From: Isurus oxyrinchus
Taxonomy: Eukaryota
NCBI GenBank assembly: GCA_026770705.1
Contig: JANJGN010000038.1
Span: 10,292,001 to 10,356,000 of the forward strand
Length of the DNA: 64,000 nt
Direction of reading: 5' to 3'
Position numbers and translations under genes: made by a program
Part shown: positions 4,606 through 63,390 of the stretch, in pieces
How positions within the stretch are numbered: the stretch's first letter is position 1
How the letters are laid out: every line of letters starts with the position of its first letter
The notes under the pieces: generated by a model
Told to the model about the DNA's origin: nothing
Seen by the model: the letters and a program-made list of their open reading frames with translations, nothing else
Databases searched by the model: none

Positions 4606-5163
4606 GATTATAATCCTTTGTTTGTACTTAACAGTTGTATCCTCCAATAATACTTCCAATAACATGCACGCCCTGCAAATACATTGAAACAACGCTCTCA
4701 CTTAGAAACTGAGTTAAGTGAATGATTTTCCAAGCATTTCCATCACAAATTATGAAAGAAGATGAGATTCCCCAACTCATCACATAAGTGATAACACCCA
4801 GAGCCTGCAATTAGTAGCCATAAGTACCTGTCGTTAAAATAACCGTTTTGAACTACTAATTTTCCTGCGTAATCCAGTAATAGGTCATATGAAATTGATC
4901 CAAAACACACTGGCACTGAATCTTTAAAAATACAATGTACTGATACGGACAGCATGTGGAATGTAAAGCAAGAACGGCTCTGTTGTTAGTAACAGACAAA
5001 GATTACTGAGAGCCACTAATGTAATAAGAGGCATGCATGAAAATTTAATTCGAAACTAAGCCAAAAGCTTGAGGAAGATACAACAGAATATATGTGCAAA
5101 AGATAATGGGACGTCCTGGATTAATATGCATATTAAAACATTTCCTCGGATATATCCCTCTAG

Positions 5164-5291
5164 ATTCCACGGGCCACATCTGGATTAAGGACTCTGAGGA
5201 CAATAACGGGAACATCTGGACCACTGCTTCCACATTCATCGCCCTGTTCTTCTTGAGCATTTTCTATGGCGCTGCCGTCACTCTGGTGATG
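5164..5291 (+). CDS. Immunoglobulin heavy-chain transmembrane exon TM1 (IgM/IgW/IgNAR type), copy A
   Basis: Acceptor ccctctag|A, 128 nt, phase 1, donor |gtgaga. Encodes (D)STGHIWIKDSEDNNGNIWTTASTFIALFFLSIFYGAAVTLVM, homologous to the mu membrane segment [23 protein letters not shown] (CART motif) with an acidic spacer. Isotype and functionality not determinable. Confidence 0.9.
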
Positions 5292-5431
5292 GTGAGAAGA
5301 TTCAATCCACTCACACATCAATATGACAGGAGCGGTTTGAAAAATCTCCAAATATTTCACTGATTGAAAACTCCAACATAAATGTCCCAGGTCATTAATA
5401 TCTGCTGCAATATTTTCTCCCTCTTTTACAG

Positions 5432-5440
5432 TTTAAGTGA
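5432..5440 (+). CDS. Ig heavy-chain TM2 exon coding part (FK-stop), copy A
   Basis: Polypyrimidine acceptor ttttctccctcttttacag|TTT AAG TGA, 140 nt after the TM1 donor. Matches copy B (ATC AAA TGA) and the canonical 2-codon TM2 (VK-stop). Confidence 0.8.
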   Translation, partial: FK

Positions 5441-5880
5441 TCGGTTGATTTTCGGACCTCCTTGGCTGTTCCTCAGTTGTTTATTGAGATCTCTATATTG
5501 TGACTTTAAAATATGTTCTTCTGGTGACGCTAACAGTGAAATGTCTTCATTTTATGATTCTGAATGTGTAATTGAGACATTCGTGGACAGTATTTCCGCC
5601 TTTCTGTCTGAAATGCGCGAGATAATTATTATTTTAAAATAACTGTAACTTATAATTTCACTATAGCTTGAATTGCATTTGTAAATATGACTTTTCTTTC
5701 GCTGTTGTCCCCTTCCCTTTATGCCAAATTTCTGTTTTCTTTTTCTGGCCTATGTTACACTTCTACTTACAGTTGGCAGCTCAGAGCATATGGGGTTGTC
5801 TCAATGTGACACTCAAACGATAAATTCACTTTTGTGACCTTTACATGAACCATTTCTATAAAACATGCTCTGAAATTGTT

Positions 5881-5886
5881 AATAAA
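5881..5886 (+). terminator. Putative polyadenylation signal of IgH membrane form, copy A
   Basis: AATAAA about 440 nt after the TM2 stop; AATAAA sits at the homologous position in copy B (47942). Confidence 0.6.
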
Positions 5887-8265
5887 TCTTGAATGATAAT
5901 TGCACCAAGTATGACTTTGCTGAATTCATTTCTCCTCGCTTCATCGACATGGCTGCATTTTCCCTATTTCACGTTTTCCTCCTTTCCCGAGTGGTATTTA
6001 TCACGATTCCTGTCTGCAAAGTGTTTGAACTCGAGGCCCTTCAGTCAAAGAGCGATTCACCACACAACGCCACACCCGTGTAAAGAAATGTTTACCCCTT
6101 CCCTTTTATGGTGAAAACCAGAAGCAGAATGATGGAATGGCGAAGAGCAACTCAGTGACGTCTCTGATCTGTCACAGTCAGCGTCTGGTCGTTCTAAATA
6201 ATAAAGGCACTCTTCCTCAGAGGTTAATGCAGCACAATGTTTGTTGAAGAATACGTTCTTTACATATCACATAAAATATTCCCAGGCCTCTACAGCACTG
6301 GTTAGGTGCGGAGTAAAGTGCCCCCCCCACGCCACCACCACCCCCCCTTCCCCCTCACCCCACCCCCGCACTGTCCGGCTAAACACTTACAAAGCAGAGC
6401 AGTTGCAGAGCCGATATATAACACTGATATTGCCGTTGGCACAACCATAGGCTAATTCCTAGAGGCCGGGAAATATATGGCACATAAACACCATCGAGAC
6501 AAAATCTTGTCGGCCTTCTTATGCTGAACCGGGCAAAAAACATGAGAACGATTCTGAGAGATTGGGACCAATGCAGATCTGATATAGACATACTATTGAA
6601 CAGAAATTCTACAAGCTTTCGCTAGAATTTGTATTCCCTCAGGCTTGAGAGGGAGCAGAACCCGTTGGACATTGGGGCCTCGATGACACAAAAAGGAAAT
6701 CAGCCTAAACAAAGTGATGTGGTCCAAAAACCGGGGCCTCTCTAATACACAAACCCTAATGCCTTCTCTGGCACTTTTAGTTTCTTTGATCTGGAAGCTG
6801 CATGACTACTTGAACCCCTTATGAAGACAACTGCAGATAGTACGTCCACACCATGAAAAGCTGCCTATTCTTTAAGGATTTCACACTGGCAGATCTGGCC
6901 TCTTTATGCAGACATGGACTATCCAGTGAATTGTAATTATTGTTTACTCACTACACAAATCCATGCTTCCCCACATCAATTATTATTACTAAAACTAAAA
7001 GAAAACACGAGTTACCAGATTGGCTAGTCACAACACTTGACATCATGCGAATTGTCAAAACTAGCATGAATTACGTCTTGATTGAAAGAATAAAACGAGG
7101 GCTGAGAGTTAAAATTTCGCATCAGGTTTTGGAAAATTCACTTGTCCACTGGTCGAGAACAGCTATAGAGGCGGAGATTAGAAGTGAAGGAAAGGGGTGA
7201 GATGGGCTGTGCTAATGCACAATGCACAAAAAGTTAACTGACTAAAGATGGTGGTGTAAGGCTGAATATGGGTTGCAATGGGACAGATGTTTCTGCTTGC
7301 TGTTTACACAGATACACACATTACTCCTGATCAACCGATCACAACTGACCTTTGAAAACAGCACTCCAGGCCAGAGTTGTTTCTTCGCTGCAACAAATGG
7401 TGCAACTCCCCCAGGTTTACAACTCGTTTTGTGTTGCAAAGTGGAGAGTGCCTAATTTCAAAATGAGAATACAAATATTACAGCTTTGATTTTAAACATT
7501 GAATCATGGAACAGATACTGAGTATAGTTGTTTGAATTTGCATGGTATTACTAATGATTGAGTAAAAGTAGTTATACATTTGGATATTTGCTGCACATTG
7601 ACTCTAACATCCTGAAATTCATTTCAAGCTGAGGCACCAGGCGGAAACCAACAGTTGTCCTGCTGTAATAACTGGCATGGTGCCTGAGTCTAAATATTAA
7701 AACCTTCCAAGCATTCTGGTAGATCAGTGCCGGCCTGCTTCTAGACCATGTTTATCATTTCTAATGTTTCGTTCCCAGAACTATACAAGTAATCCAGCAT
7801 GTAATCTAACCAGGGATTTGTACAGCTGTAGCAAAGCTTTTCTCCTTTTCTGTTACAGCCTCAGTTCACGGTACAGTAAATAGATTTACATTGTGCATAT
7901 CCATTCAGAGTAATGAAAACCATCTTGATCAGTAAAAACGACTTTTGGTTCTTTGGTATGAATTCAATTGCACGCTTAAACACTGCATATGTCAAAAACT
8001 GTATAAGAATCACAAGCCCAACTCTTCGTGTCTTTCCATCAGGAAAGTTTGTTTATTCAGGCAATCTGTGCGAGCACACCGCAGAAAATCCTTCAAAATT
8101 GGTCAATTACTTACAAGAGGATATGGAGCCCAACACATGTGGCCATTCAACGTATTTGACCAAACATTTACTCCGTCAATGTTAGAGTCGGATATCAATA
8201 CTTCGTCACAATTAGGCACAATATCAATTAAAAAGTCAAAGGGTAAAGTGATGCTTCTGTAACAG

Positions 8266-14011: not shown

Positions 14012-14922
14012 TCATCTTTTAAATAATTTAACAAGCAGATTCAGTGGGAATTTCACACCATTCTTTAACTCTTCTCTGAATTTACTCTGGGTCCCTGCAT
14101 AAATAAATGGATTGACGCAAGAACTCAGGAGCTGAAGCATACGTGCGATTTCCTCCATAAGAAAATTTGATTCATTGAAATTGGAAGAGTCTACATAGCT
14201 AAGATTCGCAATTCGGACATAGAGGAAGTTTATAAGTTTTAACAAATATAACAGGATGAAACTGCCTGAGATACAGAAGAGCAAAACCATGGACTTCCTT
14301 CTTTTCTGCATCTCTGGGTCACTTTGATTCTCTCCATTGCTCTGGATCCGGAGTCTCCTGCGGGCTCGACTGGCCGTTACAATGTGTCTGATGGTCAGAG
14401 CATTGAGTAGTAAAATAAGGACGAATGAGAGGCAGAGGATTAACACGGCGATTATGCTTTCATAAGCGACCCATGCAGGTGATGTATAAAATGTTGATTT
14501 TGCCTTGCATTGCCAGGGTATATTGTCAATTATAAAGGCAGGCTCACACATAAAATACAAGGGGATGCTTTTAACACAGTTCAGTGCACAGACAGTTCCT
14601 ATCACCACAGCCGCCATTTTCTCAGTGCAATATTTAGTTTTCAGCTTCTGGCAGCAAATGGCTACAAATCGGTCAAAGGTGAAAGCCACTGTTACACAGA
14701 CAGAAGAATCGATGACACAATAAATTAGCACAAGTCTGAGGCTGAAGACCGGAGTGATGGACAAGAGACTGAATGGGAAATAAATACCTATAACCCGGTT
14801 TAATAACACAACTGTGATCCCGACAAGGAGATCCGTCACGGCCATGGACATCAGGTAGTAAGTGATACATTTTGCGAGACCGCATCTTCCTCGAGGCAGT
14901 ATCAGAATCACTGCCAGATTAG
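14012..14922 (-). CDS. GPR139/GPR142-like class A GPCR, gene 1, exon 2 (intact)
   Basis: Acceptor gtcacag|CT AAT CTG (phase 1); open to TGA at 14014-14012. Motifs NL..ILIL.RGRCGL, MAVTDLLV (TM2), FTFDRFVAICC (DRY), LLLNALTI (TM5), KSMVLLF (TM6), SSCVNPFIY (NPxxY), QSKFREEL (helix 8). With exon 1 gives 981 nt / 326 aa. Confidence 0.92.
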
Positions 14923-15720: not shown

Positions 15721-16182
15721 TGCACTGTGATATTAGTGTGCTAAATACTTCGCCCACATTAATAATGACAATAACAACATCTAATTTCACTTAGACTGAG
15801 AGACCGCACTGCTAAGTGGGAGAAAATTTTTAATTAAAGAGATAAAAAGGCATTGGTGAAGCAAACATAGTAATCCCTGAAATGGAAGTAAGTATACTGG
15901 CAATGGGAAGAAACTGTTCTCGTGAAGGGGAGAAATGATACCCTTAAAGTGGAGAAAAGAGACCAGTAATGAGCAGTAATATTGCGAGGAAAGGGAAGGT
16001 TTAATATCAATTAAAAGAAGAATGCACTAAACGTAGAGATAAGGATACTGCAAAAAAGGGAAAACATTATAAATAACAAATTATCCTGTTAATGGGGTGA
16101 ACCATAGAGAAGCAATACAGCTAAATTAAAGAAGTGATAGAAAAATGATTCTGGTAACTGGTAACTAACCCTAATACTTTAC

Positions 16183-16252
16183 CTGGAATACCGATAGCTG
16201 CAAGAACGGGATAGTAAATGGCAAACACCAGACCTTCTGGTATCCCATGCAT
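16183..16252 (-). CDS. GPR139/GPR142-like GPCR gene 1, exon 1
   Basis: ATG at 16252 encodes MHGIPEGLVFAIYYPVLAAIGIP + G|gtaaag (70 nt, phase 1), joining exon 2 in frame to give TM1 ..GIPANL (GxxxN motif). Confidence 0.9.
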
Positions 16253-16303
16253 TTCTCTCAAAAGCTCCGAGTGTGCTCTGTGCTACACCGAAAGACTGTT
16301 ACA

Positions 16304-16400
16304 TTTATACATGATGTCGGCCTCTAGGGAGACAAAGGGAAGGTTTGGCCTTTTACATTAATTACACTAACTGAAAAAAAACATTTTAGTGCAGCTGCTG
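16304..16400 (-). promoter_or_regulatory. Proximal promoter of gene 1: TATA, EBF/Olf-like site, homeodomain site, E-box
   Basis: TATAAA (16309-16304) about 52 nt before the ATG; cctctagggaga 16321-16332; TAATTA 16359-16364; CAGCTG 16392-16397. Positionally conserved in the paralogs. Confidence 0.6.
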
Positions 16401-16739
16401 CCGCGCTCACATTTATGTTTTTGATGGAATAGAATCTGTTTTCAAGCACACTGGCGCGGCTCCAAATTGAAATAATCTGATAGGAGAGTACGGTCCAAGT
16501 TGCATTTTTTCCTAAAATTTAAATAACAAGCCAAACAAGCCATTGTAATTGTGAAAGTGAGCACTGTGCACGAGCATCCATGGCTTTAAACTCCGCAGGA
16601 AAACATTACAATGTTCTCACTCTTGATCATTTTTCAGGCCGTGTGAACACGGATCACGTGTAATGTGGCTCCCTTTCCCTTCTGGAATGAGGAACCAATC
16701 AGTAGCCATCCACCCTCAGCCTCTCTGCCTGCTTGGACG

Positions 16740-19200: not shown

Positions 19201-19269
19201 GCCGGAGAGATTTTATTTATTGTGATTTTCCATGACAAAATCCAGGTCTATTTTTAATGATAAAGGAAG

Positions 19270-19530
19270 GCTCTTAGGCAAAGTACTAGGGGATGAGGAG
19301 GTTCTGGAGAATTTGGAATTGTCTTCTCCAGAAAACAAGACACGGCAGGGGCACTAAATATATTTAAGGCATAGTTATACAAATTATTGATCGACAAGAG
19401 ATCCAATGGTTACTCAGTCTGGCAGGAAAATGGAGTTAAGGCCAGGATCACATCAGTCATGAACTTACTGTATGTTGGAGCTGGATTGTTGGGTCGAAAC
19501 GCTTACAATGACTTTCATCTCTTTTGATCT
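19270..19530 (+). mobile_element. CR1 LINE 3' end remnant
   Basis: ..tggaattgtcttctcca..aatatatttaaggc..ggcaggaaaatggagttaagg..catcagtcatgaactt.. resembles the CR1 3' ends at 31.6-31.85 kb. Confidence 0.5.
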
Positions 19531-19559: not shown

Positions 19560-20461
19560 GTCACTGTTTATGCCATTTGGCAATAGATTGAAAGAGTATT
19601 TAAACGCCCTTTTCAGCTCCGCTTTGTATTTAGTCTGGGTCCCTGCATATATAAATGTATTCTTACAGGATCTAAGGAGTTAAAAACACTGTCGGATTTG
19701 CTGCAGAATAAATTTTGTGTCAATGGAAATGGAACTGATAGATCAGCTATTTCCCATACTTTGTGCAAACAGGAAACGTACAATATGCGTCAAGGCCAGC
19801 TGGAGGAAACTGCCTGAAATGGAGAAGAGTACAAAAATAGACTTGCTGTGGCTCTTCATCTCTGAGTCACTCTGATTCTCTCCATTCCTGTGGGATCAGA
19901 GTCTGCTGCAGGATTTACTTACCAGTAGAATATTTCAGGATGTCTCAATATCGAGCAGCAAAGTCAGGAGAAAGGAGAGACAAGGGGTTAGAATACAGTC
20001 CAGCCAGTCAAACATTCTCCATGGAAATAAAATATAAAATGCATCATCTATGATAGAGTTACGTTGTTAACGATATAAATAAGTTCATACATGAAATAAA
20101 AAGGGGTGGCTATCAAAGAGGACTGCACACAGATCATTCTTAAATTTCCAGCTGCTGTTTTCTAACTGCAGTATTTCATTTTCAGCTCCTGGTGACAAAT
20201 GGCTAGGGAACAGTAAAAGGTGAACTTGAGGGTTGACCAGAGAGTACAACCTTTCGAACCAGAGTTTAAAGCAACAAGGACGACATAGAGGAATGGTGGA
20301 CAGAAAACTGACTGGAAAATAAACAGCCGGAAATGGGCTTAATGTCACGGTAATGCTAATGACAAGGAGATCTGTCACCACCATGGATACCAGATACTGC
20401 GTGATACATCAGGAGAAACCACAAATTGCTCGGGAGAAGATCACAATCATTAGAAAGTTAG
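19560..20461 (-). pseudogene. GPR139/GPR142-like GPCR pseudogene, exon 2
   Basis: Acceptor ttacag|CT AAC TTT; (A)NFLMIVIFSRAICGFS*CITQYLVSMVVTDLLV... with an in-frame TGA and several frameshifts; C-terminal SCKNTFIYAGTQTKYKAELK. No matching exon 1 found. Confidence 0.85.
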
Positions 20462-23400
20462 CTGTAAGGCAGAGAGCGAGAGAGAGAAAGAGGAGAGAGA
20501 GAGGAACAGAATTAGTGCTGAAACTCTCAGCTACACCTGCAGTTTGGTGGGAGAGGGTATGGAATTTATATCATGAATACTTGATTCAACGCTGGAACTG
20601 ATTAATTTAGTAACGTAGTGTGTTTTTTTTTATTAATATTGTCCCAAATACATTGGAAATTGGAACATGAAATAACACAAAACACTTATTTTCTGATTTC
20701 TGTAAAGTTTATGCAATCTAGAAGTAGCAGGAATTGAACAGGATTAACGTATTAAATAGACAAAAGGACAGCCTGAAGATGGCATAACGGACAGATAATA
20801 AATCAATACATTTAGTCGTTTAAATTCCGGTAAATAATAACGTTATGAAATGTTAAACCGCTATAATACTTAGAGCAATCGAATGACAGGAAATAAGATA
20901 TGGGTAATAACTTATTCCTAAGAAATAAATGAGGGAACCACGGGACGATGGAAAATAAAGTTGAACGAACGCCATTGATTCAATTCGGGTTTAGTTCCTG
21001 TGGAAACAGGTCAAACAGCATCAGCGGGTTTTTTTGCAGCTCAATGATTGCTGTAGTGGGAGATTAGGTCTCGTATTTTAGTGAAGATTTGTAATTGAAG
21101 AAGCAGAAAGTCCTCCGTTTAGAGTCTCATCAAACGAGCGACAGAGCAGGTAGTGCTGTCCTTCCTCAGGAGTATGCAGCTAGGTTAGGGACTCGAGATC
21201 GGGAGTAGGGCTCAAACCCAGGGCTTGAACACTGATATTTCAAAATGTAGATCCCCGAAATAAAGTGGCTGTGAGCATAATACATACTGGTTCCGATGAG
21301 TATCACACAGCCTTGACAACAAAATGCATCTTAGGAGAATTGAATGGGGCAGTTAACATTAGCAACAGAGTTAAAAAAAAAGTCTTCGTAACTGTTCATC
21401 GATTGCAACTATTTGATAAATTTACGAATAAACATGTGGAGGGTAAACAAAAATATGGAAAAATACATACCACTATCATTTATAGTTTCGCGCCAATTAG
21501 AACATATGCTGATCTGTAATGGTTAAGCTCAAAGCACCACAAAAAAAAACTCCCTCCCACAAATTATATTCCTTCTTCCACAGTTTGCTCATTCAGTTAT
21601 GCAACAACAACCCTTCGCAATGTCCTCTTCTTATCTAAAATATTTACTGTGCCACATGGCTTATTTTCAGCAGCAATTTGGATACGAAACTTACTATTGC
21701 TTAATTTCGAACCTTTAAATGCGGTGAAAAGCTGAGACCCAAATACAAATCTTGCGAATCAGCTGTCACACCCTGTCAATTGAAATGAATTCACTTTATC
21801 CATCAACAAATTAAATGAGCTTTGTACACACCACAGCCATCGCTATTTAAATTTATGTCGATATCAATATAAATTAACATCTAGGCATGTAAAATAAACG
21901 ACCTGTTTGACTAAGAAATTCAGGTGTTAATGACATTATTGAAGTAACAATTAAACTACATTTTGCAGCATTTGTATCATTGCCAAAAATTCCTTGAATA
22001 CAAGACACAGAAATCGTGGGAACACATAAAGCAACCTTGAATTCTTTGCTGTTGGAGGACAGCCAAACATCCGGAGAAGCTAAACAGTAGACATTTGACC
22101 CTCAAGGCTTCACAGTTAAAAAAAAGATGGAAAAGATTTAATTCCGGAAAAATTACGTAGAATACAATGAATTCAGATTCAGAATGTTTCTGTTTCCTAT
22201 TTTGAGTGATTCAGAAAACTGACTGTAAAAAAACAGCCGTAAACCGGCTTAATACCATTGTAATGAAAATACAAAGGAAATCTATCACCGCCATGGACAC
22301 TGCGTATCTAGAAAGACCACATCTTCCTCGGGAACGTTTCACGATAGTCAGAAAGTTAGCTCTAAGCTAGAGAGAGAGAGAGAGAGAGAGGAGAGAGTAG
22401 GGAAGAATTAGTGTTGAATTTCCCAGCTCCAACATCCGTTTTGCGGAAGAATGGTATGGCATCTGGACCATCAATACTTTATTCAACGCTGGAACTGATT
22501 AGTTTACCAATGTATAAATGCTGGTCCATTTTTTATTTATATTGTCCCAGATAAAGTGGAAGTCGGAATATAAAATGACACAAAGCACTTACTTTCCGAT
22601 TCCTGTAAATTTTATGTAATCTAGAAGTAGAAGGAATTGATCTTCACTAACGTATTAAATTGACAAAAGGACAACCTGAAAATGGCATAAAATACATATA
22701 AAATCTCAATTCATTTATTCATTTAAAAATAAGTAAATAATAACGTTATGAAACTTTAAACCACTATAATAATGAAACCAATCTAATGACAGGAAATAAG
22801 GTATGGGTGATAACGAATTCCTAATAAGTATCAGAAGGAACCAAGGTACGATGAAAAAAAAAATGAGCGAACACCTTTGACTAAATTTGGGTTTTGCCCC
22901 CGTGGAAACAAGTCAAAGCGCATCAAGGTCTTTTTTTTCAGTTCAGTGACTGCTGTAGTGGGAGATGAGGTCTCGCAGCTGTAGTGAGGATTTTCAACTG
23001 ATAAAGCAGAAAGACCTCGGTTTACAGCCTCGTCAGAAGGACGACAGAGTAGAAAGTGCTGGACTATCTCAGCGGCATGGAGCTGGGCTACAGACACGCG
23101 ATCGGAAGTAGGGAACAAACCCAGGGCTTTCCGAACGAACACTGAAATTTCAAAATTTAGCTCAGTTAAATAAAATGGCTACGAGTATAATGAATTCCGG
23201 CTCCGAAGCGTATCACACAGGCTGGACAACGAAGTGCACTACTAAGGAGAATTGAATGCAGCTGTTAACCGCAGCAACGGAGTTAAAAATGGTGATCATC
23301 ACAGTTCAGCGACTGCAATGATTGATGTTAAATTTACGCATTGTTAGTTGAACACCAATAAACATGTGGCGGGTAAACAAAAACATGGAAAATACTTACC

Positions 23401-24095
23401 ACTATCATTTATAGTTTCACCCTAATTAGAAAATATGGTGACGTGCAATGGTTAAGCTTAAAGCGCCAGAGAAAAACAGCCTTCCCCAAATGGTATTCCT
23501 TCTCCTACAGTTTGCTCATTCAGTTATCCAACGACAGCCCTTCGCAATGTTCTGTTCTTCTCTAAACTATTTAGTGTACCACATGGCTTATTTTCGGCAG
23601 CAATTTGGATACGAAACTTACTGCTGCTTCATTTTGATCCTTCTAAATGCGATGAAAAACAGGCCCACATACAAATCCTGTGAATCAGCTGGCACCGCCT
23701 GTCAATTGCACTGTATTCACATTATCCATCAACAAATTAGATGAGCTTTGTACACACCGCAGGCATCGTGACTTAAATTTACATCGATATCAATGTAAAT
23801 TAACATCTATGCATGTAAAATAAATGACCCGTTTAATGAAACAATTGAGGTGTAAATTACAATATTGAAGTACAAATTAAACTATATTATACATCATCTG
23901 TATCATTGTCAAAATTCCTGTCAACACAAGAAACAGCGCGCCTTGGAACATATAAATCAATCTTGAATGTCTTGCCCTTGGAGCGCAGCCAAAAACCGGT
24001 AGAAGCTAATAGTAAACATTTGACCCTCAAGGATTCACAGTTAAGCAAATGTTGATAAGAACTAGTTTTGTAAAAAAATATAGAATACAATGAAC
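20295..24095. repeat. Direct tandem duplication of ~1.9 kb (about 20295-22171 and 22205-24091)
   Basis: Colinear matches throughout, e.g. attcaacgctggaactgatt, caatttggatacgaaacttact, catcaacaaatta.atgagctttgtacacacc, catttgaccctcaagg, gaatacaatgaa. Confidence 0.9.
22205..22359 (-). pseudogene. Truncated GPCR exon-2 stub (5' ~155 nt) in second duplicate unit
   Basis: ttagag|CT AAC TTT CTG ACT ATC GTG..TCC CGA GGA AGA TGT GGT CTT TCT ..TCC ATG GCG GTG ATA GAT; ends abruptly at the duplication junction. Confidence 0.75.
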
Positions 24096-31264: not shown

Positions 31265-31850
31265 CTGCAGCTGTGCATGGTCATTGTGAGATCACACCTG
31301 GAGTAGTGTTTGCAGTTCTGGTCCCCTTACCTAAGAAAGGATATACCTACCGTAGAGGGAGTTCAGGCAAGGTTCATCAGGCTGTTTTCTGGCCTGGCAG
31401 AATTATAGTATGAGGAGAGCTTGGGCCGGCTAGGCCTTTATTCATTGGAGAACAGAAGAATGAGAGGTGATCGCATTGAAACATATGAAACTCTGACAGG
31501 AATGTACAGACTGGATGCGGGGATGATAATTCCTCTGGCTCGGGCGTCTAGAACAAGGGGTCACCGACTCAGGATACGGGTTAGACCATTTAGGACTGAG
31601 ATGAGGAGAAACGTCTTCAATCAGAAGGTGGCGAACATTTGGAATTCTCTAGCACAGAAGGCTTTGGAGGTCAAGTCACTGGATATATTTAAGAAGTAAA
31701 TAAGTAGACCACTAGCCTTCAAACGCATCAAGGGGTGTGGGGAGAGAGCCGGTCTAAGGCGTTCAGATAGAGGATCAGCCATCATCAAACTGAATGGCGG
31801 AGCAAGCTCGAAGGGCTCGAAGGAGTAATCATACTCCTATTTTCAATATT
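29620..31850 (+). mobile_element. CR1 LINE (EN-RT-3'UTR), degraded and internally deleted
   Basis: EN remnants (IMSDF, DHNMIEF), NCRPVS.TSIVGKMLESIV, DYQKAFDK, then LGLYSLENRRMRGDRIETY..TRGHRLRIRVRPFRTEMRRNVFNQKVANIWNSL. Confidence 0.85.
31188..31264. repeat. (TA)n microsatellite
   Basis: Directly visible; lies at an internal deletion point of the CR1 copy. Confidence 0.95.
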
Positions 31851-32764: not shown

Positions 32765-32860
32765 CAGCTGCAGCACGAGCATCTTTGTTTCAATTTCAAT
32801 TATTGCAAAAGATCAAAGCGTCTAATTGTCTCCCTGGAGGCTGGCCTGACATATATATGT
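32765..32860 (+). promoter_or_regulatory. Proximal promoter of gene 2, homologous to the gene 1 promoter
   Basis: CAGCTG 32765; CAATTA 32797-32802; TAATTG 32823-32828 abutting tctccctggagg 32829-32840; TATA-like atatatat 32851-32858. Confidence 0.55.
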
Positions 32861-32908: not shown

Positions 32909-35266
32909 ATGCATGGATTGCCAAAATGTCTGATTTTCATCATATACTATCCCGTCCTTGCAGCGATCAGGATTCCAGGTTAAGGATTTTGGTTTGCTAT
33001 GTTATTGAAATCATTGTTTAATCACTTTTCTTTGGTTTGCTTTCATTTTAGTGAATCGTTGTTCGTATTTAGCAGCTTTGCTTCTGCATGGTACGATATT
33101 CTTTCTCCCAATAAACAGAACAATCTATCAACATTACGCGACATCTTTCCACTTTATCAGCTCGACAATGTCACTTCTTTCCACTTCAAGGGAAATGTTT
33201 AATTTAATTCTCCATTTTAGCAACAAAATTGTTTTCTTTTACTGACATGATTAGTCGTCATCACATGTCGAGTCGCTCAAGTTTTTCCGTGTCATTTCTT
33301 CCCTTGTACATAATTTCTCCCCAACGCCAGAATAATAGTTCAGCAGTAACAATGCACTATCTTCCCTGAGCTAGTAATATTTAGTCAGTTTAATTGGACA
33401 CTTTCATCTGTTTACCTCCACCGTTCGAGGTTTCAGATGTTATTTTATTTTATGCTTGGTGTTTTTAAAAAAGGTTATGTATAACGCTGTTACCACTGAG
33501 GAAATGTTTTTCTGTTGTGTCAATGGCATTCTCATCGTGTGTGAATTATTACAGAGGAACTGTATCTGTATTATCTCATGCATTTCCCTTTCACCTATCG
33601 CTCCGATATGAACAGTATTTATCTGATAAATTTGTGCAGAATATTAAATGACTGGCCGAGAGTTTATTGTCTTAGCGGAAACCTGGCACCCTGGGCGGTG
33701 AAGACTTCTCAGGGAGCTGAAGTTGGTCTTGAATCCAGGATCTTTTGACTCCAAAGCTAGACGACTTTCAACTTAGCAGCAATTGAACCTTTAACTGTGT
33801 GTGGATTTCCTCACTGCTGTGAAAGACAGTTGTGTTCGCTGCAGGTCATCATAACTCAGGAGTTGTAGTTACCCTTTATTTCCATCCAAAGGAGTTTTTT
33901 TTCCCATTTTAGCTGTTTTCATTTGCTGGATTATGCCCACAGCAGCATCACTTTGTATTTAATTCCATTCGAAGCCATCTACTGAGTTTCTGTCAAATTA
34001 TTAGGTCGATTTAACATTGTGTCCCTTCTGTTTTCCAATGTTCTATCCTGTTCTTCTCTAAACAGCAAGCAAGAGGATACTTGATCGTTTTTCAATGAAC
34101 TGAGTAAAAATTCTGCAATTTGAATATTCACTATAGGGCCGAGCCCGCATTCTTCCTGTAAATCAGCACAGTATTGACGATTTGCTGTATTTTGGAATGA
34201 GTCTTTCTTTCTCCACTGGAGCATATAAGTCATAGGACTGAAATGGGAACATTGCTCTCTTTTCATGACCGATGCTGTATTTGTGAGTTTCTCAATATTT
34301 TCTGTTCTATATTCATTTGTCCCCACCGCAAATTTACTGGTTATATTCCTCTGTCACAGCTAATTTGGCAGTAATTGTGATCCTGTCTCGAGGAAGATGC
34401 GGTCTCACTGGATGTATCACATACTATCTGATGTCGTTGGCCGTGACGGATCTCCTGATCATGATCCTTGCTGTGATGTTAAACCGGATTGTAGGTACAT
34501 ATTTCCCATTTAGTTTCCTTTCCATCACTCTGGCCTTTGCTCTCAGTCTTTTGTTCATATATGGCGTCAAGGATTCTTCTGTCTGGGTGACAGTTGCTTT
34601 CACCTTTGATTGATTTGTAGCCATTTGTTGCCAGAAGCTGAAAACCAAATATTGCACCACGAAATCGGCAGCTGTGGTCATAGGAACTGTCTGCGTTGTG
34701 CATTGTGCTAAAAAATACCCTTGTACTTTGCTTGTGAACCTTCTGTTATCACGGACAATACACCCTAGTACTGCAAACTAAAGCCAATATTGTATTCATC
34801 ACCCGGATGGGTGGTACATGACAGCATAAATGCCGTTTTAACCCCTTGTCTCCTATTTGTTCTTATTTTGCTGCTCAATGTTCTGACGGTCAGGCACATT
34901 GTTGTGGCCAGTCGAGCCCGCAGAAGACTCCGAGCCCACAGCAAGAGCGAGAAACAAAGCGACCCAGAGATGGAGAAGAGGAGAAAGTCCATCGTTTTAC
35001 TCTTTGCCATCTCGGGAAATTTCATCCTGTTATATTTCCTCGCTCTTAAAACTTTCCTCTACGCACGAATTGCCAGCGTTAGTTATTTCGATGGCTCGAA
35101 TTTCAATCAATCAAATGTTATACTGGAGGAATGCAGACTTATGCTGCAGCTTTTAAGGTCCTGCATCAACCCGTTTATTTGTGCAGGTACCCAGAGTAAA
35201 TTCAGAGAGGAGTTAAAGAATGGCTTGAAATATCCATTGAGTCTGATTGTTAATTTATTTAAATGA
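32909..35266 (+). pseudogene. GPR139/GPR142-like GPCR gene 2, pseudogene (exon 1 32909-32978; exon 2 34360-35266)
   Basis: Exon 1 MHGLPKCLIFIIYYPVLAAIRIP+G|gttaag; acceptor gtcacag|C at 34360. Lesions: TGA at the DRY arginine (34611-34613), a -1 frameshift near 34710, and TAG for Trp at 34766-34768. Ends SCINPFICAGTQSKFREELKNGLKYPLSLIVNLFK*. Confidence 0.92.
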
Positions 35267-36639: not shown

Positions 36640-38035
36640 TGAGTCTCACGTCAGTGGTCGGGAAACTATTGGAGAAAATTCTGAAGGAAAGAATCTATCT
36701 TAACTTGGAGAGAGAAGGTTTGATACGAAATATTCAGCATGGATTTTTCCGAGGTAGGTCAAGCCAAAAAAATTTTACTGAGTTTTTGAGGAGATGACCA
36801 GGTGTGTAGATGATGGTAGTGCAGTTGATGTAGTTTATATGGATTTCAGAAAAGCCTTTGACAAGGTCCCAAATGGCAGCCTTATAAATAAGGCAAATGT
36901 GTATGGGATACAGGGTAATTTGATAAAATGGATTATAAATTGGCTTAGTTGTAGGAGACAGAGTGTGATGACAGAAGGCTGCTTTAGTGACTGAAAACTC
37001 GAGACCAGTGGTTTACCATAGGGATCTGTGCTGGGTCCCCTATTGTTCGTTATTTATATAAATGACATAGATGACTATGTGAGGAGTGTGATTAGTAAGT
37101 TTGCGGATGACACAAAGATTGGTTGGTTGGTTTACAGTGAGGTTGAGAGTCTTGGGCTGGAGGAAGATATTGGCGTGGTGGTCAAATGGGCAGATAAGTG
37201 GCAGATGGAATTTAACCCTGGAAAGCGTGAGGTTATACACTTTGGAAGGAGTAATTTGACAAGGAAGTATTCAATGAACAGCATGGCATCAGGAAGATCT
37301 GACGAACAAAGGGACCTTAGTGCCTGTGTCCATAAGTCTCTGAAGGCAGAGCGGCGTGTTAATGGGGTGGTGAAGAAGGCATTTGGGACACTTGCCTTTA
37401 TCAGTCGAGGCACATATTGCAAAAGTAGAGGGGCCATGTTGGAGTTGTACAGAACCTTGGTGAGACCACAGTGGGAGTGCTGTGTGCAGTTTTGATCGCC
37501 AAATGATAGGAAAGATGTGATTGCGCTAGAAGTGGTGTAGAGGAGGTACACCTGGATGCTGCCTGGGCTGAAACATTTAAGTTATAAAGAGAAGTTGCAT
37601 AGACTTGGGTTATTTTCAGCATAGCAGAGAAGACTGAGGGGCGACCAGTTCAAGGTGTACAAGACTGTGAGGCGTATGGACGGGGTGGATAGGGAGCAGC
37701 TGTTCCCCTTAGATGAAGGCTCAGTCACGATGGAACACAAGTTCAAAGTGAGGGGCAGGAGGTTTCGGGAGGATGTGAGGGAAAACCTTTTTTACCCAGG
37801 TGTTGGTGACTGTCTGGAATACACTGCCTGAGAGGGTAATGGAGGCTGGTTGCCTCACATCCTTTATAAAGTGCCTGGATGAATACTTGGCACGTCCTTA
37901 CATTCATGGTTGTGGACCAAGTGCTGGTCAATGGAATTAGTTAGGTAGGTCAGACGTTTCTCACGTGTCAGTGCAGACTCGATGAGCAGAGGGGCCTCTT
38001 CTGCACTGTGCGAACCTGTGATTCTCTGATTCTGT
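36640..38035 (+). mobile_element. CR1 LINE RT + 3' end
   Basis: VSLTSVVGKLLEKIL..QHGF, VDVVYMDFRKAFDKVP, GSVLGPLLFVIYINDID..ISKFADDTK..WQMEFNP, LVRPQWECCVQF; ends in gattct repeats. Confidence 0.9.
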
Positions 38036-44760: not shown

Positions 44761-47226
44761 TCAAAATGTGTCAAAAACGATGTCACTATCATAACCCATG
44801 AAGATTTCCTCCAATCATAGCATAAATATCTTAATGAATTGTTCAGAATTCTAAACAATCGATTCCCACAGTTCCTAGCGACCGAAGAAAGGCTCATTGC
44901 AATTCTGGTCTACATGTGGCATTTATTTTTTACCATTCCTATCTGTTGAAGTGCAAATACTGTCTGTCTCTCCTATTCGAAACATCTTCCTGGAGCTAAT
45001 CTTTATCAGGTTTTGCAGTCGTCCATCTTCAACAGCTTTGTTCCCTCCACAAATTCAGCCATTGTTGTTGTGTCTTTGAGCTTCGGGTCATTATCAACTG
45101 CATTTAAAAAATAGGTTCAAATAAGGAGACTCTAGGATATCCACTTTAGGCCAATTCATCTCTGTATCCATGCCGTATAGGCACTATGCATCAACATGCT
45201 AGTAACACCTTGTGAAATATATCCACCAATTCAAGCAACTGATTCCTAGATGAACTACGTGCAAGGACTGAAAAAGCCAAGTGTATCGCATCCATTAAAT
45301 GGATCCTACCTGGTGAAGTTTAATGGCACAGACTCCCTTTCATGGACATATATCCACTATATATTGAGATTACTTTGCATCCATCTGTTCCGTGGCTTTA
45401 TTTGCAGCAACGGTTGCTCAGGAGTACACACTCTGAACATCAACTCAATACTTTGTACTTTCCTGGATCAAATTGGCATCTGCTTTCCTGGAGAACCAGC
45501 CACTCTTTAATGGTCAGGACTTTCTCTTTAATTTGTGTGCGGCACCCTGCAATGTGCTTACGTATTTGCATAAGGAAGCTCGATTAAAGTTAACTGGCCA
45601 CTTAGGTCGACGAATCAGAATTGAATATTGGACAGCTGTTCATTAACCATGTTGATCGCAATGTGACCTGAGTCACAACGATTCTCTGACACACTCTAAA
45701 ACAAGTCATTTTTTTATCCATTAAATGCGTGGAGGTGTTTTAAATATCTGCACGAAATTCGCCTATTCCCACGTCTCTATACCTATAAATGTATGTATTT
45801 CTGAGTCCCAATTACTGATCATTGAAAATTTGTCTGTCTCAATATCCCACTCCAATAACATGAAAAAAAATACAATATTAATTTATTGTGCTCCCTTCGG
45901 AGACTGTTTATATATGCGAGAGAAAATGCTGGACACATTTCGTTGACTGGATAACATCTCTGGATTGAGAACAAAAAAACAGGTAACCGTTTCAGGTTGA
46001 TGAGCTATCAACGGAACTGCAAAAGTGTTAGGGGTGTTTTATGGACGTGCTAATTGGACATCAGTCAACATGCGTGGACTCTTCAGTGGACATATTCGTG
46101 AAAAATTCTTCTTGAACATTTAATCACTTGAAATTTCCCAATCATCTGCAAATGTTGCGGCATCTATCTCAATGGGCATTCCTTGATTTGTGGAGCATTA
46201 CCATTCTGGATGACCCGGAGTCTTAATCTCATTTAAGATCATAATTTCCAACCAATAGTTTGCCTCGGCTTAATCTTCCTACCACATTACAGCACTTCAA
46301 TCTTGGTCTGAATTAAGTTACTTTGCCATTTATCCTCATGTTTTTCTGATATTCTTGTATTTGGTCACATTCATCCTTAGCATTAGCAAAACCTCAACCC
46401 TTCCTAAGTTAGCATGGTACGCAACTTTTTTTATACTATACTTCCCAGCACTGAGATCAGCTCATTCAAGTCCCCGGTCGAAAATGGGGGCTAAAGTTTC
46501 TATCCCCATGGATTATTACTGCTACTTGGCACCCGTAGTAATAACTATATTCAATTCCTGCTCTCTGTATTTCTTTTCTGTTTGTTTTACTTTGGTAGTA
46601 GTGGTTAAAAAACCAATGGGAATATCTGGACATTTTAAATAAGTTATTCATGGTGACCTGTGTATGCACAAGCTGAACACGTGGTAGAAGCAGAATGGAT
46701 AATATTTCTTCCAAAAATGAATCACTATTCAGAAAGGAAAATAAATTACTATGAGAAAGAGCATTGGAACCGGACAAATGGATTAGCACTTTCAGGACAA
46801 GGAATAATTGGTGTACTGGCCTCCATCTGTGCAGTGCAATGCTATGCTTTGTTATCCATTCAGCTACCGCAAAGCTGAAATAAAATGTTAGCAATTTTAT
46901 CCTCAAATAAATAAACGGCAATAAAATGGTAGGCAAACGTACACAAGTCAAAAAAGCAACAGCGTAAACGTAACAAAAGACACTGGATGCTGAAGACCTG
47001 AATGTTCTGATGAAATGGCGTCGACGTGACACCTTGGCTTTCCATCTTTCTCCTCGTGAGTGTTATCTGTTTCTATCTAATAACAGATACTTTCATATGG
47101 ATAAATTCCAGCTTCATTCCGACATCGCATGATTTTAAATGTATTACATGATTTGTTGTTGTTATTTTTTTTTGCTGAGATTAATTGAGGTTCCCATTGG
47201 CCAACCCCTCGGTAATATCCGTGTAG

Positions 47227-47354
47227 ATTCGATAGACCGCATCTGGATTGAAGGCTATGAGGACGATAACGGGAACATCTGGACAATAGCTCCAACATTC
47301 ATTGCCCTGTTCTTCCTGAGAATTTTCGACAGCGCTGCCGTCACTCTGGTAAAG
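47227..47354 (+). pseudogene. Immunoglobulin heavy-chain TM1 exon, copy B (orphan, probably degenerate)
   Basis: Acceptor gtgtag|A, 128 nt, donor AAG|gtgaga. Encodes (D)SIDRIWIEGYEDDNGNIWTIAPTFIALFFLRIFDSAAVTLVK, with S>P, S>R and Y>D changes in the CART helix. No C exon seen in the preceding 12 kb. Confidence 0.85.
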
Positions 47355-47501
47355 GTGAGAATATTCAATCCTAGTGGATTGAACACTACAATCTGACAGA
47401 AGCGGTTTGAAAACTTTCTAAACATCTCAACAATTAAAAACTATAATATGAATGCACCAGATCATAAACATCTGCTTCATTATTTTCTGCCTCTTTTACA
47501 G

Positions 47502-47510
47502 ATCAAATGA
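47502..47510 (+). pseudogene. Ig heavy-chain TM2 exon coding part (IK-stop), copy B
   Basis: ctcttttacag|ATC AAA TGA; gives cytoplasmic tail KIK. Confidence 0.8.
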
Positions 47511-47941: not shown

Positions 47942-47947
47942 AATAAA
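47942..47947 (+). terminator. Putative polyA signal, IgH TM copy B
   Basis: AATAAA at the position homologous to 5881. Confidence 0.55.
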
Positions 47948-51800: not shown

Positions 51801-52703
51801 ATGCTGACAAAGTTTGATATTTCACTCTAAACACCTCCCCCCACCCCAGCACCACAAACCCCACAACAAAAAAACCCCACTTAGGCCGCCAGCCCCCCTC
51901 ACCCCACACCTCACACTTTGAAATGACATGCTTCAGTTACTGCTGCAGCAGGAGGAAGCCTTTGGATTTCTTAGAGTATCACAACACTGATGGAAGCCCT
52001 TGAAGCATTCGTCTGTTTCTCGCTACACAAAGGTAGCGAGGGCTGCTGATTATTCCCAGCCTTTCTGTTTTTTTTTTCAGATCCGAGCACATTGGCCCCC
52101 CCTCTCTCTCCTCTCCTGAACATCCTTTTTCAGGCTGGGTTCAGAGTGACATTTGAATTGACGAATTTCACTGGAACATAACTTATGCATTGGAAATACA
52201 CCATTATTTGAAACGAGGAGACTTGCCGCTCCGAGGTTCTGTAACTGTTCAGCTCTAATAACACTGGAATAAAATCACAGAAAGAATTTGAAAAGCTAAA
52301 ATCACTGACCTTCGAACCTCTAGAAACCACCCTCCCATCTGCAGATTGGTCCGAAATGTTTTGAACAAGGTTTCCCTGTGATACTGCAGCATGTCCGCCC
52401 ATGGACTGTAACCTGCCTGAGTGGCCTTCTCCTCCAAAACCCCTTTGCGTAATGACATGAAACTCGAGCCTGGTGGGTGGGAATTTCACACACCATGCCC
52501 AAGGACAGCAGGAGAGTTGGAATAGCCTGAAAACCAGCAGGACAAACAGGACTGAGGTAAATTACTTCCCAAATGCACCGCTTCTGTTAGTCATTGAATC
52601 CTGGCGGTGAAAGATGAAAACTGGCCTCACCCTGTGCTCATCACCGAGGTGAAGAGATTGGGAATAAAACAGGGTCAACTCGTGTTGATAATGGATATTC
52701 TTG

Positions 52704-53600
52704 TCACTGTTTAATAAATTTAACAATTACAGAAAAGGAATATTTCACCACATTCTTCAATTGCTGAATTGAGTCTGGGTCACTGCATAAATGGCCGTGT
52801 TAGTGCAACAACTCAGGAGCTGAAATATAAATCCCAGTTCCTGCACAAACCTAGGAAGGTATACAGGAATAGCATCTAACAAATATGGCCTATTACAAAC
52901 AAAATGTATCATAAAACTACCCACAACAGGATAAAATTCCCCGATAAAGCAAACAGTAAAATGATGGATTTCCTGCGTTTTTCCATCTGTGGGTCCCTGG
53001 GTCTCTCCCCACTGCAGTGAGCCCAGAGTCTCCTGCGGCCTCTGCTCAACACTAAACTATATCTGACAGTTAAAGCGTTCAACATCAAAATCAAAACAAA
53101 TGGCGCAAATGGTGTTAAAATATAATGAAGACATTCGATTGATGCCCACATTGATGAGAATTCAGCATCCGTCACTAATGTGCAAAACCAAGGAGCATTG
53201 GAAAGTGAATATTGACCTACATACATAAAGTACCAGAATGTGTCCTTCACACAGAATAGCAGACTGACTGTTCCGAGAACCACAGCTGCCGTATGCTCGG
53301 TGCAATATTTTGTTTTCAACTTCTGGGAACAAATAGCCAGAAATCTATCAAAGGTGAAAGAGACTGTGAACCAGACAGAACAATCTGTGGCTGCATAAAG
53401 CAGGACTGCATGGATATTACACACTTTAAACCTCGACAAGAACTGAAACTGAGCCCAGTAAAGAATAGCAATTTGCCTGAATATGAGATCAAGGATAACG
53501 ACCAGTAGATCCGCGGTTGCCATGGACACCAGGTAAAGGGAAAGACATTTTGAGAGACCGCACCTTCCCGGAGACAGGGTCACAATAGTCAGTATGTTCA
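52704..53600 (-). pseudogene. GPR139/GPR142-like GPCR gene 3 (divergent subfamily), exon 2, frameshifted
   Basis: Acceptor ttacag|TG AAC ATA; TM1-TM6 open (MATADLLV, KVC, DCSVWFTVSFTFDRF, PWFC, TPFAPF). A frameshift in TM6 gives TGA at 52911-52909; the shifted frame continues FIFQLLSCCTNTAIYAVTQTQF, then a second shift to QLKNVVKYSF..KQ* (52706-52704). Confidence 0.88.
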
Positions 53601-58870: not shown

Positions 58871-58967
58871 CAGGAATGCCAACAGCAGCGAGGAGCGGAT
58901 AGTAAATACTTTGCAAATCATAAATCATCCAGAAAATTCGAAGTTCTGTTGGTATTTCAAAGAACAT
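58871..58967 (-). pseudogene. GPCR gene 3, exon 1
   Basis: MFFEIPTELRIFWMIYDLQSIYYPLLAAVGIP+G|gtgaaa (97 nt, phase 1) joins 53600 in frame (GIPVNIL); intron about 5.3 kb. Confidence 0.85.
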
Positions 58968-59072
58968 GATCTCATTTTCTGTGAGGTCCAATGATCGCTG
59001 TTTTTATTGGAGACTGCACTCTGTCGAACACTGATACACATTGAAAACATTGCCTAGATGTAGGCGGAGTAG

Positions 59073-59120
59073 AGCCTCTGGTGATTCAATTAAACAATAC
59101 ACTAGCTGATATTAATTACA
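59073..59120 (-). promoter_or_regulatory. Conserved promoter module of gene 3
   Basis: cctctggtgatt-caatta (59075-59092) and attaattaca (59111-59120), at the same offsets as in genes 1 and 2. Confidence 0.5.

Positions 59121-63335: not shown

Positions 63336-63390
<55 letters not shown>

What the first reader, a model, noticed from the sequence alone, without database searches (positions are those of the whole stretch)
16304..16400. Homeodomain + EBF/Olf-like promoter module with identical spacing in three divergent GPCR paralogs
Seen, aligned on the antisense strand from the CCTC core: gene 1 cctctagggaga (16321), gene 2 cctccagggaga (reverse of 32840-32829), gene 3 cctctggtgatt (59075). All three have TAATTR starting exactly 38 nt from the first C (16359, 32802 reversed, 59113). 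Genes 2 and 3 also have CAATTA at offset 12, abutting the core. Genes 1 and 2 have a TATA element about 12 nt downstream and a CAGCTG E-box upstream. Gene 3 belongs to a divergent subfamily and the spacer bases differ, which suggests selection. Established: EBF/Olf proteins bind TCCCNNGGGA-like sites; homeodomain (Lhx2/Emx2) plus O/E sites are the signature of vertebrate olfactory-receptor promoters and enhancers; EBF1 plus E2A drive B-cell genes. Inference: the receptors may be under an olfactory-neuron programme or, given the IgH neighbourhood, a B-lineage one. The EBF match is imperfect, and weakest in gene 3.
Basis: partly seen in the sequence, partly recalled or inferred. Interest (0 to 1): 0.75.

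Follow-up and report, generated by a model that had tools for sequence, protein, structure and literature searches.

The report
Smell-type promoter on shark receptor genes
A short control sequence in front of three copies of a very large, unstudied shark receptor gene family is real and old, and it resembles the switches that turn on smell receptors in mammals, but nothing yet shows that these genes work in the nose.

Summary
They form the proximal promoter of two-exon rhodopsin-type GPCR genes of a very large elasmobranch family, annotated 'probable GPR139' but only distantly related to GPR139. Gene 1 is intact; genes 2 and 3 are pseudogenes. Between genes 1 and 2 the equal spacing is plain descent: an indel-free block, 82 of 112 nt identical, motifs no better kept than the spacer. 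Gene 3, from a separate ancient subfamily, carries the same homeodomain plus O/E-like module beyond chance (p about 0.005-0.015 in 8 of 12 settings, weaker in 4). A horn-shark gene model that reads through its own promoter aligns without gaps and fits the abutting homeodomain site, the O/E-like core and the TATA box, but not the +38 site. The O/E match is imperfect, the gap differs from the mouse Lhx2/Ebf composite, and intact gene 1 lacks the abutting site. The B-cell reading has no support. Best reading: a selected family promoter read by homeodomain and EBF/COE factors in sensory neurons (0.45). Expression is untested; olfactory-rosette RNA-seq would decide whether this is an unrecognised shark chemoreceptor family (0.25).

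The parts
16359..16364 (-). Gene 1 distal homeodomain-type site TAATTA (-112 from ATG); marks the upstream end of the indel-free gene 1/2 block
16333..16338 (-). Gene 1 position of the abutting homeodomain site: CCTTTG instead of TAATTG, i.e. lost; leaves a pyrimidine tract (15 of 17) before an AG
16321..16330 (-). Gene 1 O/E-like core TCCCTAGAGG (-78); five pyrimidines then five purines; 1 mismatch to YCCCNNGGGR, 2 to TCCCNNGGGA; also matches an AP-2-like SCC-N4-GGC pattern
16303..16309 (-). Gene 1 TATA box TATAAAT (-57); a CA dinucleotide lies at -28/-27, about 30 nt downstream
16392..16397 (.). Gene 1 E-box CAGCTG (-145), outside the ungapped block
16183..16252 (-). Gene 1 coding exon 1 (23 codons + 1 nt, phase-1 GT donor)
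14012..14922 (-). Gene 1 exon 2; open 7TM frame (Pfam 7tm_1); with exon 1 gives the family's usual length of about 325 aa. The only intact receptor gene of the window
32797..32802 (+). Gene 2 distal homeodomain-type site CAATTA (TAATTG on the other strand)
32823..32840 (+). Gene 2 abutting homeodomain site TAATTG, 2 nt, then O/E-like core TCCCTGGAGG (32831-32840)
32852..32858 (+). Gene 2 TATA-like TATATAT (-57)
32765..32770 (.). Gene 2 E-box CAGCTG (-144)
32909..32978 (+). Gene 2 coding exon 1
34360..35266 (+). Gene 2 exon 2, pseudogene (in-frame stops and a frameshift near 34710)
59113..59118 (-). Gene 3 distal homeodomain-type site TAATTA (-148)
59075..59092 (-). Gene 3 abutting TAATTG (59087-59092), 2 nt, then weak O/E-like core TCACCAGAGG (59075-59084; 2 mismatches to YCCCNNGGGR)
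59002..59008 (-). Gene 3 nearest TATA-like element AATAAAA (-38), about 65 nt from the core, not 11; no TATA at the gene 1/2 position
58871..58970 (-). Gene 3 coding exon 1 (start codon inferred)
52700..53600 (-). Gene 3 exon 2, pseudogene (stop and frameshifts in the 3' part; left end approximate); separate subfamily, 110 of 227 aa identical to gene 1

Best explanation
The stretch is the proximal promoter of a two-exon elasmobranch GPCR family of the GPR139/GPR142 lineage. The ancestral layout, inferred by parsimony from genes 2, 3 and a horn-shark paralog, is a homeodomain site (TAATTR), 2 bp, an O/E-like pseudo-palindrome, and in the gene 1/2 subfamily a TATA box 11 bp further on with a start site near -27. 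A second homeodomain site lies 26 bp upstream of the first and can be gained or lost. It spreads by whole-gene duplication and is kept by selection. Most likely a homeodomain protein (Lhx2/Emx type) and an EBF/COE dimer bind side by side and, with TBP, switch the gene on in neurons of the olfactory or related placodal sensory lineage, as they do at mammalian odorant-receptor genes. Shown: gene structure, motif positions, conservation. Inferred: promoter function (about 0.85), homeodomain + EBF as the readers (about 0.45), olfactory epithelium as the tissue (about 0.25-0.3).
For: Position directly upstream of exon 1 in all three genes that have a recognisable exon 1. No indel over 112 nt between genes 1 and 2 while their introns give a global score of 2 against 1-7 for shuffles. 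Horn-shark model XP_067870107.1 (P0067) reads through its promoter: its 44 upstream residues align without gaps to the in-frame translation of genes 1 and 2 (20 and 15 identical); codons 16-29, which cover the abutting homeodomain site, the core and the TATA box, need 13 base changes against 46.6 for shuffles (0 of 5000), and codons 16-21 need only 1 change from gene 2. A zebra-shark model keeps the TATA codons (P0136). The gene 3 site is the best non-training match in the window and significant in 8 of 12 unbiased settings, although genes 1 and 3 sit in separate well-supported clades and gene 3's clade holds both shark and skate proteins. O/E (at most 1 mismatch) + upstream homeodomain site + downstream TATA occurs at 2 of 80 oriented O/E-like sites in the window, exactly promoters 1 and 2 (criteria set after seeing them). 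The mouse Sfaktiria composite probe has the same order, TAATTG then a five-pyrimidine five-purine O/E site with 2 mismatches to TCCCNNGGGA (PMC5608512 supplement 7). An expanded, clustered family rich in pseudogenes (3 of 4 copies here; 1,887 proteins at the 90% level) behaves like chemoreceptor families (own knowledge), and the nearest solved relative, GPR139, responds to L-Trp and L-Phe (PMC12208981 passage).
Against: No expression or binding data at all. The O/E-like core is not significant alone and is weak in gene 3. Intact gene 1 has lost the abutting homeodomain site while both pseudogenes keep it. The +38 site is incompatible with the horn-shark paralog. Gene 1/2 promoter identity (82 of 112) is no higher than four-fold-site identity (62 of 90, p 0.19), and about 450 bp beyond the stop codon also still align between them, so descent alone explains much of it. 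The best O/E register leaves a 2-bp gap, not the 1 bp of the mouse composite, and genes 2 and 3 each miss by 1 a degenerate composite pattern that 141 of 127,968 window positions meet exactly. The gene 1/3 spacer (6 of 22) is below four-fold-site identity (22 of 45; p 0.03), which fits turnover at fixed length but also fits a chance match. EBF and homeodomain factors act in many neurons and other cells (own knowledge). The catshark top-50 'brain and olfactory epithelium' list holds no GPCR (PMC11979771 section 11); the passage gives no sign that this family was looked for, and sparse one-gene-per-cell expression would not reach such a list.
Confidence: 0.45

Rival explanations
1. It is a selected promoter, but read by other factors or used in another tissue: for example AP-2 (TFAP2) at the core plus a homeodomain protein, in skin, lateral line, ampullary organ, gut or brain.
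For: Genes 1 and 2 match SCC-N4-GGC exactly and gene 3 with 1 mismatch; the GAGGC half is the invariant part in all three (the AP-2 pattern is recalled, not from a call). GPR139 itself is a brain receptor. All conservation evidence fits any DNA-binding reader.
Against: The horn-shark paralog has Ser where genes 1/2 have Ala, which breaks the GGC half but leaves TCCC-YR-GAG. The abutting TAATTG + five-pyrimidine five-purine layout matches a tested Lhx2/Ebf element in order and orientation.
Confidence: 0.25
2. Plain paralogy plus chance: genes 1 and 2 share the block by descent with no motif-level selection, and the gene 3 match is an AT-rich coincidence.
For: Motif and spacer are equally conserved between genes 1 and 2; promoter identity equals neutral-site identity; in 4 of 12 settings the gene 3 site is not the best match; gene 3 has no TATA at the matching position and its spacer identity is at random level.
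Against: Gene 3's site is the top non-training hit among about 128,000 positions and lies in the right orientation 105 nt from its ATG; the horn-shark paralog is best conserved exactly over the abutting site, core and TATA.
Confidence: 0.12
3. The module is a 3' splice site (branch point TAAT-like, pyrimidine tract, YAG inside the core) of an intron that follows an unseen non-coding first exon; read on the sense strand the 'homeodomain' sites are branch-point-like and the 'O/E' core ends in TAG or CAG.
For: Gene 1 has 15 of 17 pyrimidines before a TAG, as good as the true exon 2 acceptors (11-15 of 17); gene 3 has a CAG at the same column; gene 1/2 homology ends about 40 nt upstream of that AG. 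The zebra-shark model P0136 stops aligning at that column, as if the predictor spliced there (inference).
Against: Gene 2 has no YAG there, gene 3 has only 9 of 17 pyrimidines and two AGs 25-29 nt upstream; the tract in gene 1 looks derived, because genes 2, 3 and the horn-shark paralog have TAATT-type sequence in its place. A conserved TATA with a CA about 30 nt downstream argues for a start site inside the block; an earlier unchecked note from another shark genome also reports a conserved TATA promoter.
Confidence: 0.1
4. B-lineage programme (EBF1 + E2A) shared with neighbouring IgH genes.
For: EBF-like core plus CAGCTG in genes 1 and 2; mu-like IgH transmembrane exons lie in the window (E 3.7e-07; second copy by an 83% repeat).
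Against: No Ig V or C domain in 142 frames of at least 78 aa on both strands or in 127 shorter + strand frames around the two exons; one weak RSS-like match in the window; no octamer near any ATG; gene 3 lacks the E-box; TAAT sites are not part of the B-cell code (own knowledge). A shark lymphocyte single-cell paper has no occurrence of GPR, GPCR or EBF1 in its main text (PMC11372145, term search only), which is weak.
Confidence: 0.08

Closest known systems
Mouse odorant-receptor proximal promoters (homeodomain + O/E + TBP motifs; review PMC12547500, passages seen)
   Same: AT-rich, homeodomain site(s) and an O/E-like site close upstream of the gene, TATA element; clustered multigene GPCR family with many pseudogenes.
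   Different: The genes are not ORs (nearest solved relative GPR139); the promoter abuts the coding exon; the layout is inherited at fixed spacing; binding and olfactory expression are unknown.
Greek Island Lhx2/Ebf composite motif (Monahan et al. 2017, PMC5608512: passages and supplements 2, 6, 7 seen; preprint PMC11643329: passages seen)
   Same: TAATTG directly followed by an imperfect five-pyrimidine five-purine O/E site, same order and orientation (genes 2, 3, inferred in horn shark).
   Different: Best O/E register leaves 2 bp, not 1 bp; 1 mismatch to the published degenerate pattern; it sits in promoters, whereas the mouse motif is enriched in distal enhancers and not in promoters; absent from intact gene 1.
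GPR139 / GPR142 and the extra fish-coelacanth subtypes named GPR210A/B (PMC6504862, passage seen)
   Same: Rhodopsin-class receptor; GPR139 is the best PDB match (E 4.7e-06 for gene 1, 1.8e-18 for the coelacanth relative P0251); coelacanth, salamander and teleost relatives branch outside the expansion.
   Different: Too distant to be GPR139 orthologs; massively expanded in elasmobranchs. Whether they equal GPR210A or B was not tested. That paper's main text has no occurrence of 'shark'.
B-cell EBF1/E2A target promoters and Ig promoters
   Same: EBF-like site with a nearby CAGCTG E-box in genes 1 and 2.
   Different: No octamer, TAAT sites present, E-box missing in gene 3, no intact IgH cluster in the window.

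Membership tests
Odorant-receptor-type promoter | O/E-like site (YCCCNNGGGR, PMC8213819) near the start | tested here: inconclusive
   1 mismatch in genes 1 and 2, 2 in gene 3; 40 such 1-mismatch sites in the window, 48.6 expected
Odorant-receptor-type promoter | Homeodomain TAATNN site(s) near the O/E site | tested here: met
   TAATTR within 40 bp in all three genes
Odorant-receptor-type promoter | Motifs conserved above flanking sequence across paralogs | tested here: inconclusive
   Not between genes 1 and 2; yes against gene 3 and in one horn-shark paralog for the abutting site, core and TATA; not for the +38 site
Odorant-receptor-type promoter | Bound by Lhx2/Emx2 and Ebf | not testable with these tools
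   needs EMSA, ChIP or footprinting
Odorant-receptor-type promoter | Drives sparse expression in olfactory sensory neurons | not testable with these tools
   no tissue-labelled RNA data were available
Greek Island composite motif | Lhx2 and Ebf sites exactly 1 bp apart / published degenerate pattern | tested here: not met
   best O/E register has a 2-bp gap; genes 2 and 3 have 1 mismatch and gene 1 has 4 to the pattern
Greek Island composite motif | Located in an intergenic enhancer | tested here: not met
   lies 78-122 nt upstream of the ATG
Known olfactory receptor families (OR, TAAR, V1R/ORA, V2R) | Protein falls in one of these families | tested here: not met
   Pfam 7tm_1 only; all 120 listed homologs are shark proteins, most named GPR139-like; best PDB match GPR139
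GPR139 orthologs | High similarity to human GPR139 | tested here: not met
   29 bits, E 4.7e-06, level with peptide and amine receptors
B-lineage / Ig promoter | Octamer ATGCAAAT near the start | tested here: not met
   best match 2 mismatches in 150-180 bp upstream of each ATG
B-lineage / Ig promoter | Intact IgH cluster (V, D, J, C) alongside | tested here: not met
   only transmembrane exons; no Ig domain in 142 + 127 frames; sequence outside the window was not available
TATA/Inr core promoter | TATAWAW about 30 nt upstream of a pyrimidine-purine start | tested here: met
   genes 1 and 2: TATA at -57, CA at -28/-27; not at that position in gene 3; start site itself not mapped

The most novel reading that the evidence does not exclude
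The elasmobranch 'GPR139-like' expansion is an unrecognised olfactory receptor family, derived from an amino-acid/peptide receptor lineage and expressed one or a few per neuron under a homeodomain + EBF promoter grammar older than the shark-skate split. Sharks would then not have the small chemoreceptor repertoire now described (65 genes in catshark, PMC6368271), and Lhx2/Ebf control would have been recruited independently by a non-OR family.
Probability: 0.25. Interest if true: 0.9.

Novelty: new variant of a known kind. Interest (0 to 1): 0.55.

Why it matters
Sharks are described as having few olfactory receptors: 65 chemosensory genes in catshark, 8 of them ORs (PMC6368271 passages). A GPCR family with 1,887 distinct proteins at the 90% level (all 120 listed are from sharks, 82 of them from horn shark by hand count) has no described function in the papers my searches reached. 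A promoter with the homeodomain + O/E + TATA layout gives a specific, cheap hypothesis for where it is expressed. If it holds, it enlarges the known shark smell repertoire and shows how old the Lhx2/Ebf grammar is. If it fails, the element is still the mapped core promoter of one of the larger orphan GPCR expansions in vertebrates.

Tried and rejected
No whole genome is held for this window, so the family-wide motif test could not be run. Metagenome scans for exon 1 DNA (0 matches) and for the protein (0 of 96 candidates confirmed) gave no further promoters. Sequencing-run search: no RNA holder listed; this is no evidence on expression. Contigs laid on 15950-16700: a roughly 93%-identical paralog shows listed differences at 16333, 16336, 16338 and 16366 and none in the core, +38 site or TATA, but 45 rows were not shown and the numbers are too small to count; the two contigs from the run guessed to be RNA continue past the exon 1 donor with sequence that is not exon 2, so they show no splicing or expression. 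Two more searches for read-through N-termini returned only P0067 and P0009; among the 281 proteins then held, only P0067 reaches the core and P0136 the TATA. Gene 4 and its duplicated fragment have no recognisable exon 1, so they could not serve as an independent test. The tree is the quick version; the careful search did not finish; rows covering under 215 residues of gene 1 were left out (94 rows kept) and human GPR139/142 were not in it. Paper searches found no paper describing this shark family or its promoter; the library lacks most subscription journals, and searches were too broad to be informative. PMC10620051 has no occurrence of GPR or G protein in its main text. Supplements of PMC11979771 (tissue expression tables, which could bear directly on the tissue question) and PMC11643329 could not be read. 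PMC7804114, PMC7776563 and PMC13113109 were seen as passages or abstract only and add background, not evidence. Earlier-findings look-ups were empty except.

Full report
What the window is. The DNA is elasmobranch. It holds four copies and one fragment of a two-exon rhodopsin-class GPCR gene. The gene 1 protein finds 1,887 proteins among 5,303 candidates; all 120 listed are from sharks, the best at 73% identity, most named 'probable G-protein coupled receptor 139'. The name is loose: human GPR139 is the best solved relative but scores only 29 bits. Relatives in coelacanth, salamanders and a teleost branch outside the expansion. Gene 1 (exon 1 16183-16252, exon 2 14012-14922, minus strand) is intact. 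Genes 2, 3 and 4 carry stops or frameshifts. Two mu-like IgH transmembrane exons lie at about 5190-5295 and 47230-47330, with no Ig V or C domain in the 142 long and 127 shorter frames scanned.

The observation. On the sense strand the element lies directly upstream of coding exon 1 in the three genes that have one: a distal TAATTA-type site, 20 bp, a proximal hexamer (TAATTG in genes 2 and 3, CCTTTG in gene 1), 2 bp, and a ten-base core of five pyrimidines and five purines (one exception in gene 3). Genes 1 and 2 add a TATA box 11 bp further on, at -57, with a CA at -28/-27; gene 3 has only an AATAAAA some 65 bp away.

How much is chance or descent. Genes 1 and 2 are not independent. They share an ungapped block from -112 through exon 1 (82 of 112 upstream bases identical; four-fold sites 62 of 90), and within it motifs (17 of 22) and spacer (16 of 22) are equally conserved. 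Their introns do not align globally (score 2, shuffles 1-7), which suggests constraint on the promoter, but about 450 bp past the stop codon also still align, which weakens that argument. Gene 3 is the real test. It lies in a separate clade with 100% SH-aLRT support that includes shark and skate proteins (quick tree). A profile from genes 1+2 alone ranks its site first among all non-training positions of the window for three of four window choices, and 24th for the fourth. With no hand-picked bounds the site is the best local match in 8 of 12 settings, with 2-6 of 400 shuffles as high; in 4 settings another site wins at 15-34 of 400. I read this as real but moderate evidence.

A second species. 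A horn-shark gene model (P0067, XP_067870107.1) happens to read through its own upstream DNA. Its 44 extra residues align without gaps to the in-frame translation of the gene 1 and 2 promoters. Codons 16-29 need 13 base changes against a shuffled mean of 46.6; codons 16-21, the abutting homeodomain site and core, need a single change from gene 2; the TATA codons are kept. The codons over the +38 site are not compatible with TAATTA. These are lower bounds inferred from protein, since silent changes are invisible. A zebra-shark model keeps the TATA codons but stops aligning at the core.

What binds it. The core has 1 mismatch to the O/E consensus YCCCNNGGGR (PMC8213819 passage) in genes 1 and 2 and 2 in gene 3; such matches are as common as chance in the window (40 found, 48.6 expected). 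The combination with a homeodomain site and a TATA box occurs only at promoters 1 and 2 among 80 oriented sites, but I set those criteria after seeing the promoters. The closest tested element is the mouse Greek Island composite: the Sfaktiria probe has TAATTG followed by an O/E site that is itself 2 mismatches from TCCCNNGGGA. The mouse gap is 1 bp, a 2-bp insertion impairs binding of the engineered fusion protein, and the shark gap is 2 bp in the best register. Genes 2 and 3 miss the published degenerate pattern by one base, and that pattern is met exactly at 141 window positions. So it resembles the composite but is not a member. Mouse OR promoters carry homeodomain, O/E and TBP motifs, which the shark element fits. 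An AP-2-like reading of the core is possible (pattern recalled), though the horn-shark codon change breaks its GGC half. Read on the sense strand, gene 1's core also looks like a splice acceptor (15 of 17 pyrimidines then TAG); genes 2, 3 and the horn-shark paralog do not share the tract, so I rank this low.

Mechanism and odds. Shown: a conserved upstream module on a large orphan GPCR family. Inferred: a TATA promoter (about 0.85) read by a homeodomain protein and an EBF/COE dimer (about 0.45), active in olfactory-type sensory neurons (about 0.25-0.3). The family's birth-and-death pattern (3 of 4 copies here broken) and the amino-acid ligands of GPR139 fit a chemosensory role but do not show it; that amino acids are odorants for fishes is my own knowledge. 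The B-lineage reading has little for it: no octamer, no E-box in gene 3, no intact IgH cluster in the window. No expression evidence of any kind was obtained.

Novelty. The grammar is known from mammalian odorant-receptor genes; its possible use by a non-OR elasmobranch family was not found in nine paper searches of a library that lacks most subscription journals. An earlier unchecked note from another shark genome mentions a conserved TATA promoter and an upstream 26-bp satellite for this family; the TATA agrees, and no such array was found upstream of genes 1 or 2 here. Catshark is credited with 65 chemosensory receptors, so a positive result from rosette RNA-seq would be a real surprise. 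As it stands the finding is a good, directly testable lead on modest evidence: interest 0.55, new variant of a known kind.

Noticed in passing
window 5144-5976 and 47207-48036 (+): Two isolated mu-like IgH transmembrane exons with about 80%-identical downstream flanks, 42 kb apart, with no V or C exon found near them; no clear AG acceptor was checked. They look like orphan or decayed ends of IgH clusters interleaved with the GPCR genes.
   Followed up: partly
window 20461-22170 and 22355-24093 (-): A 1.75-kb, 79%-identical duplication upstream of pseudogene 4 and of a short exon 2 fragment (22214-22360). Neither copy has a family-type exon 1; both keep a TAATT, a TATAAA and a GT donor-like site about 1 kb upstream of the acceptor (near 21470 and 23400), plus CAATTGACAGG and CAGCTG further up.
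   Followed up: partly
window 19223-19294 (-): A further small GPCR fragment (extracellular loop 2 region) downstream of pseudogene 4.
   Followed up: no
window 59857-59990: A 31-bp tandem repeat (4.3 copies, 65% matches) about 780 bp upstream of the gene 3 module; genes 1 and 2 have no such array.
   Followed up: no
window 58871-59092 (-): The gene 3 module lies in the same reading frame relative to the exon 1 donor as in genes 1 and 2 (66 nt further away), and gene 3's subfamily has longer N-termini; its true start codon may be upstream of 58970.
   Followed up: partly
P0240, P0251, P0256, P0271: Coelacanth, salamander and teleost proteins named GPR139 that are far from human GPR139 and branch next to the shark expansion; they may be the subtypes called GPR210A/B.
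   Followed up: partly
window 36782-37492 (+), 31409-31696 (+), 61077-61613 (-): Decayed mobile-element pieces: a reverse transcriptase fragment (Pfam RVT_1), LINE-like tails, and a weak Myb/SANT-like match typical of Harbinger elements.
   Followed up: no
window 62928-63680: A 50-52-bp satellite array around an assembly gap of 147 N.
   Followed up: no
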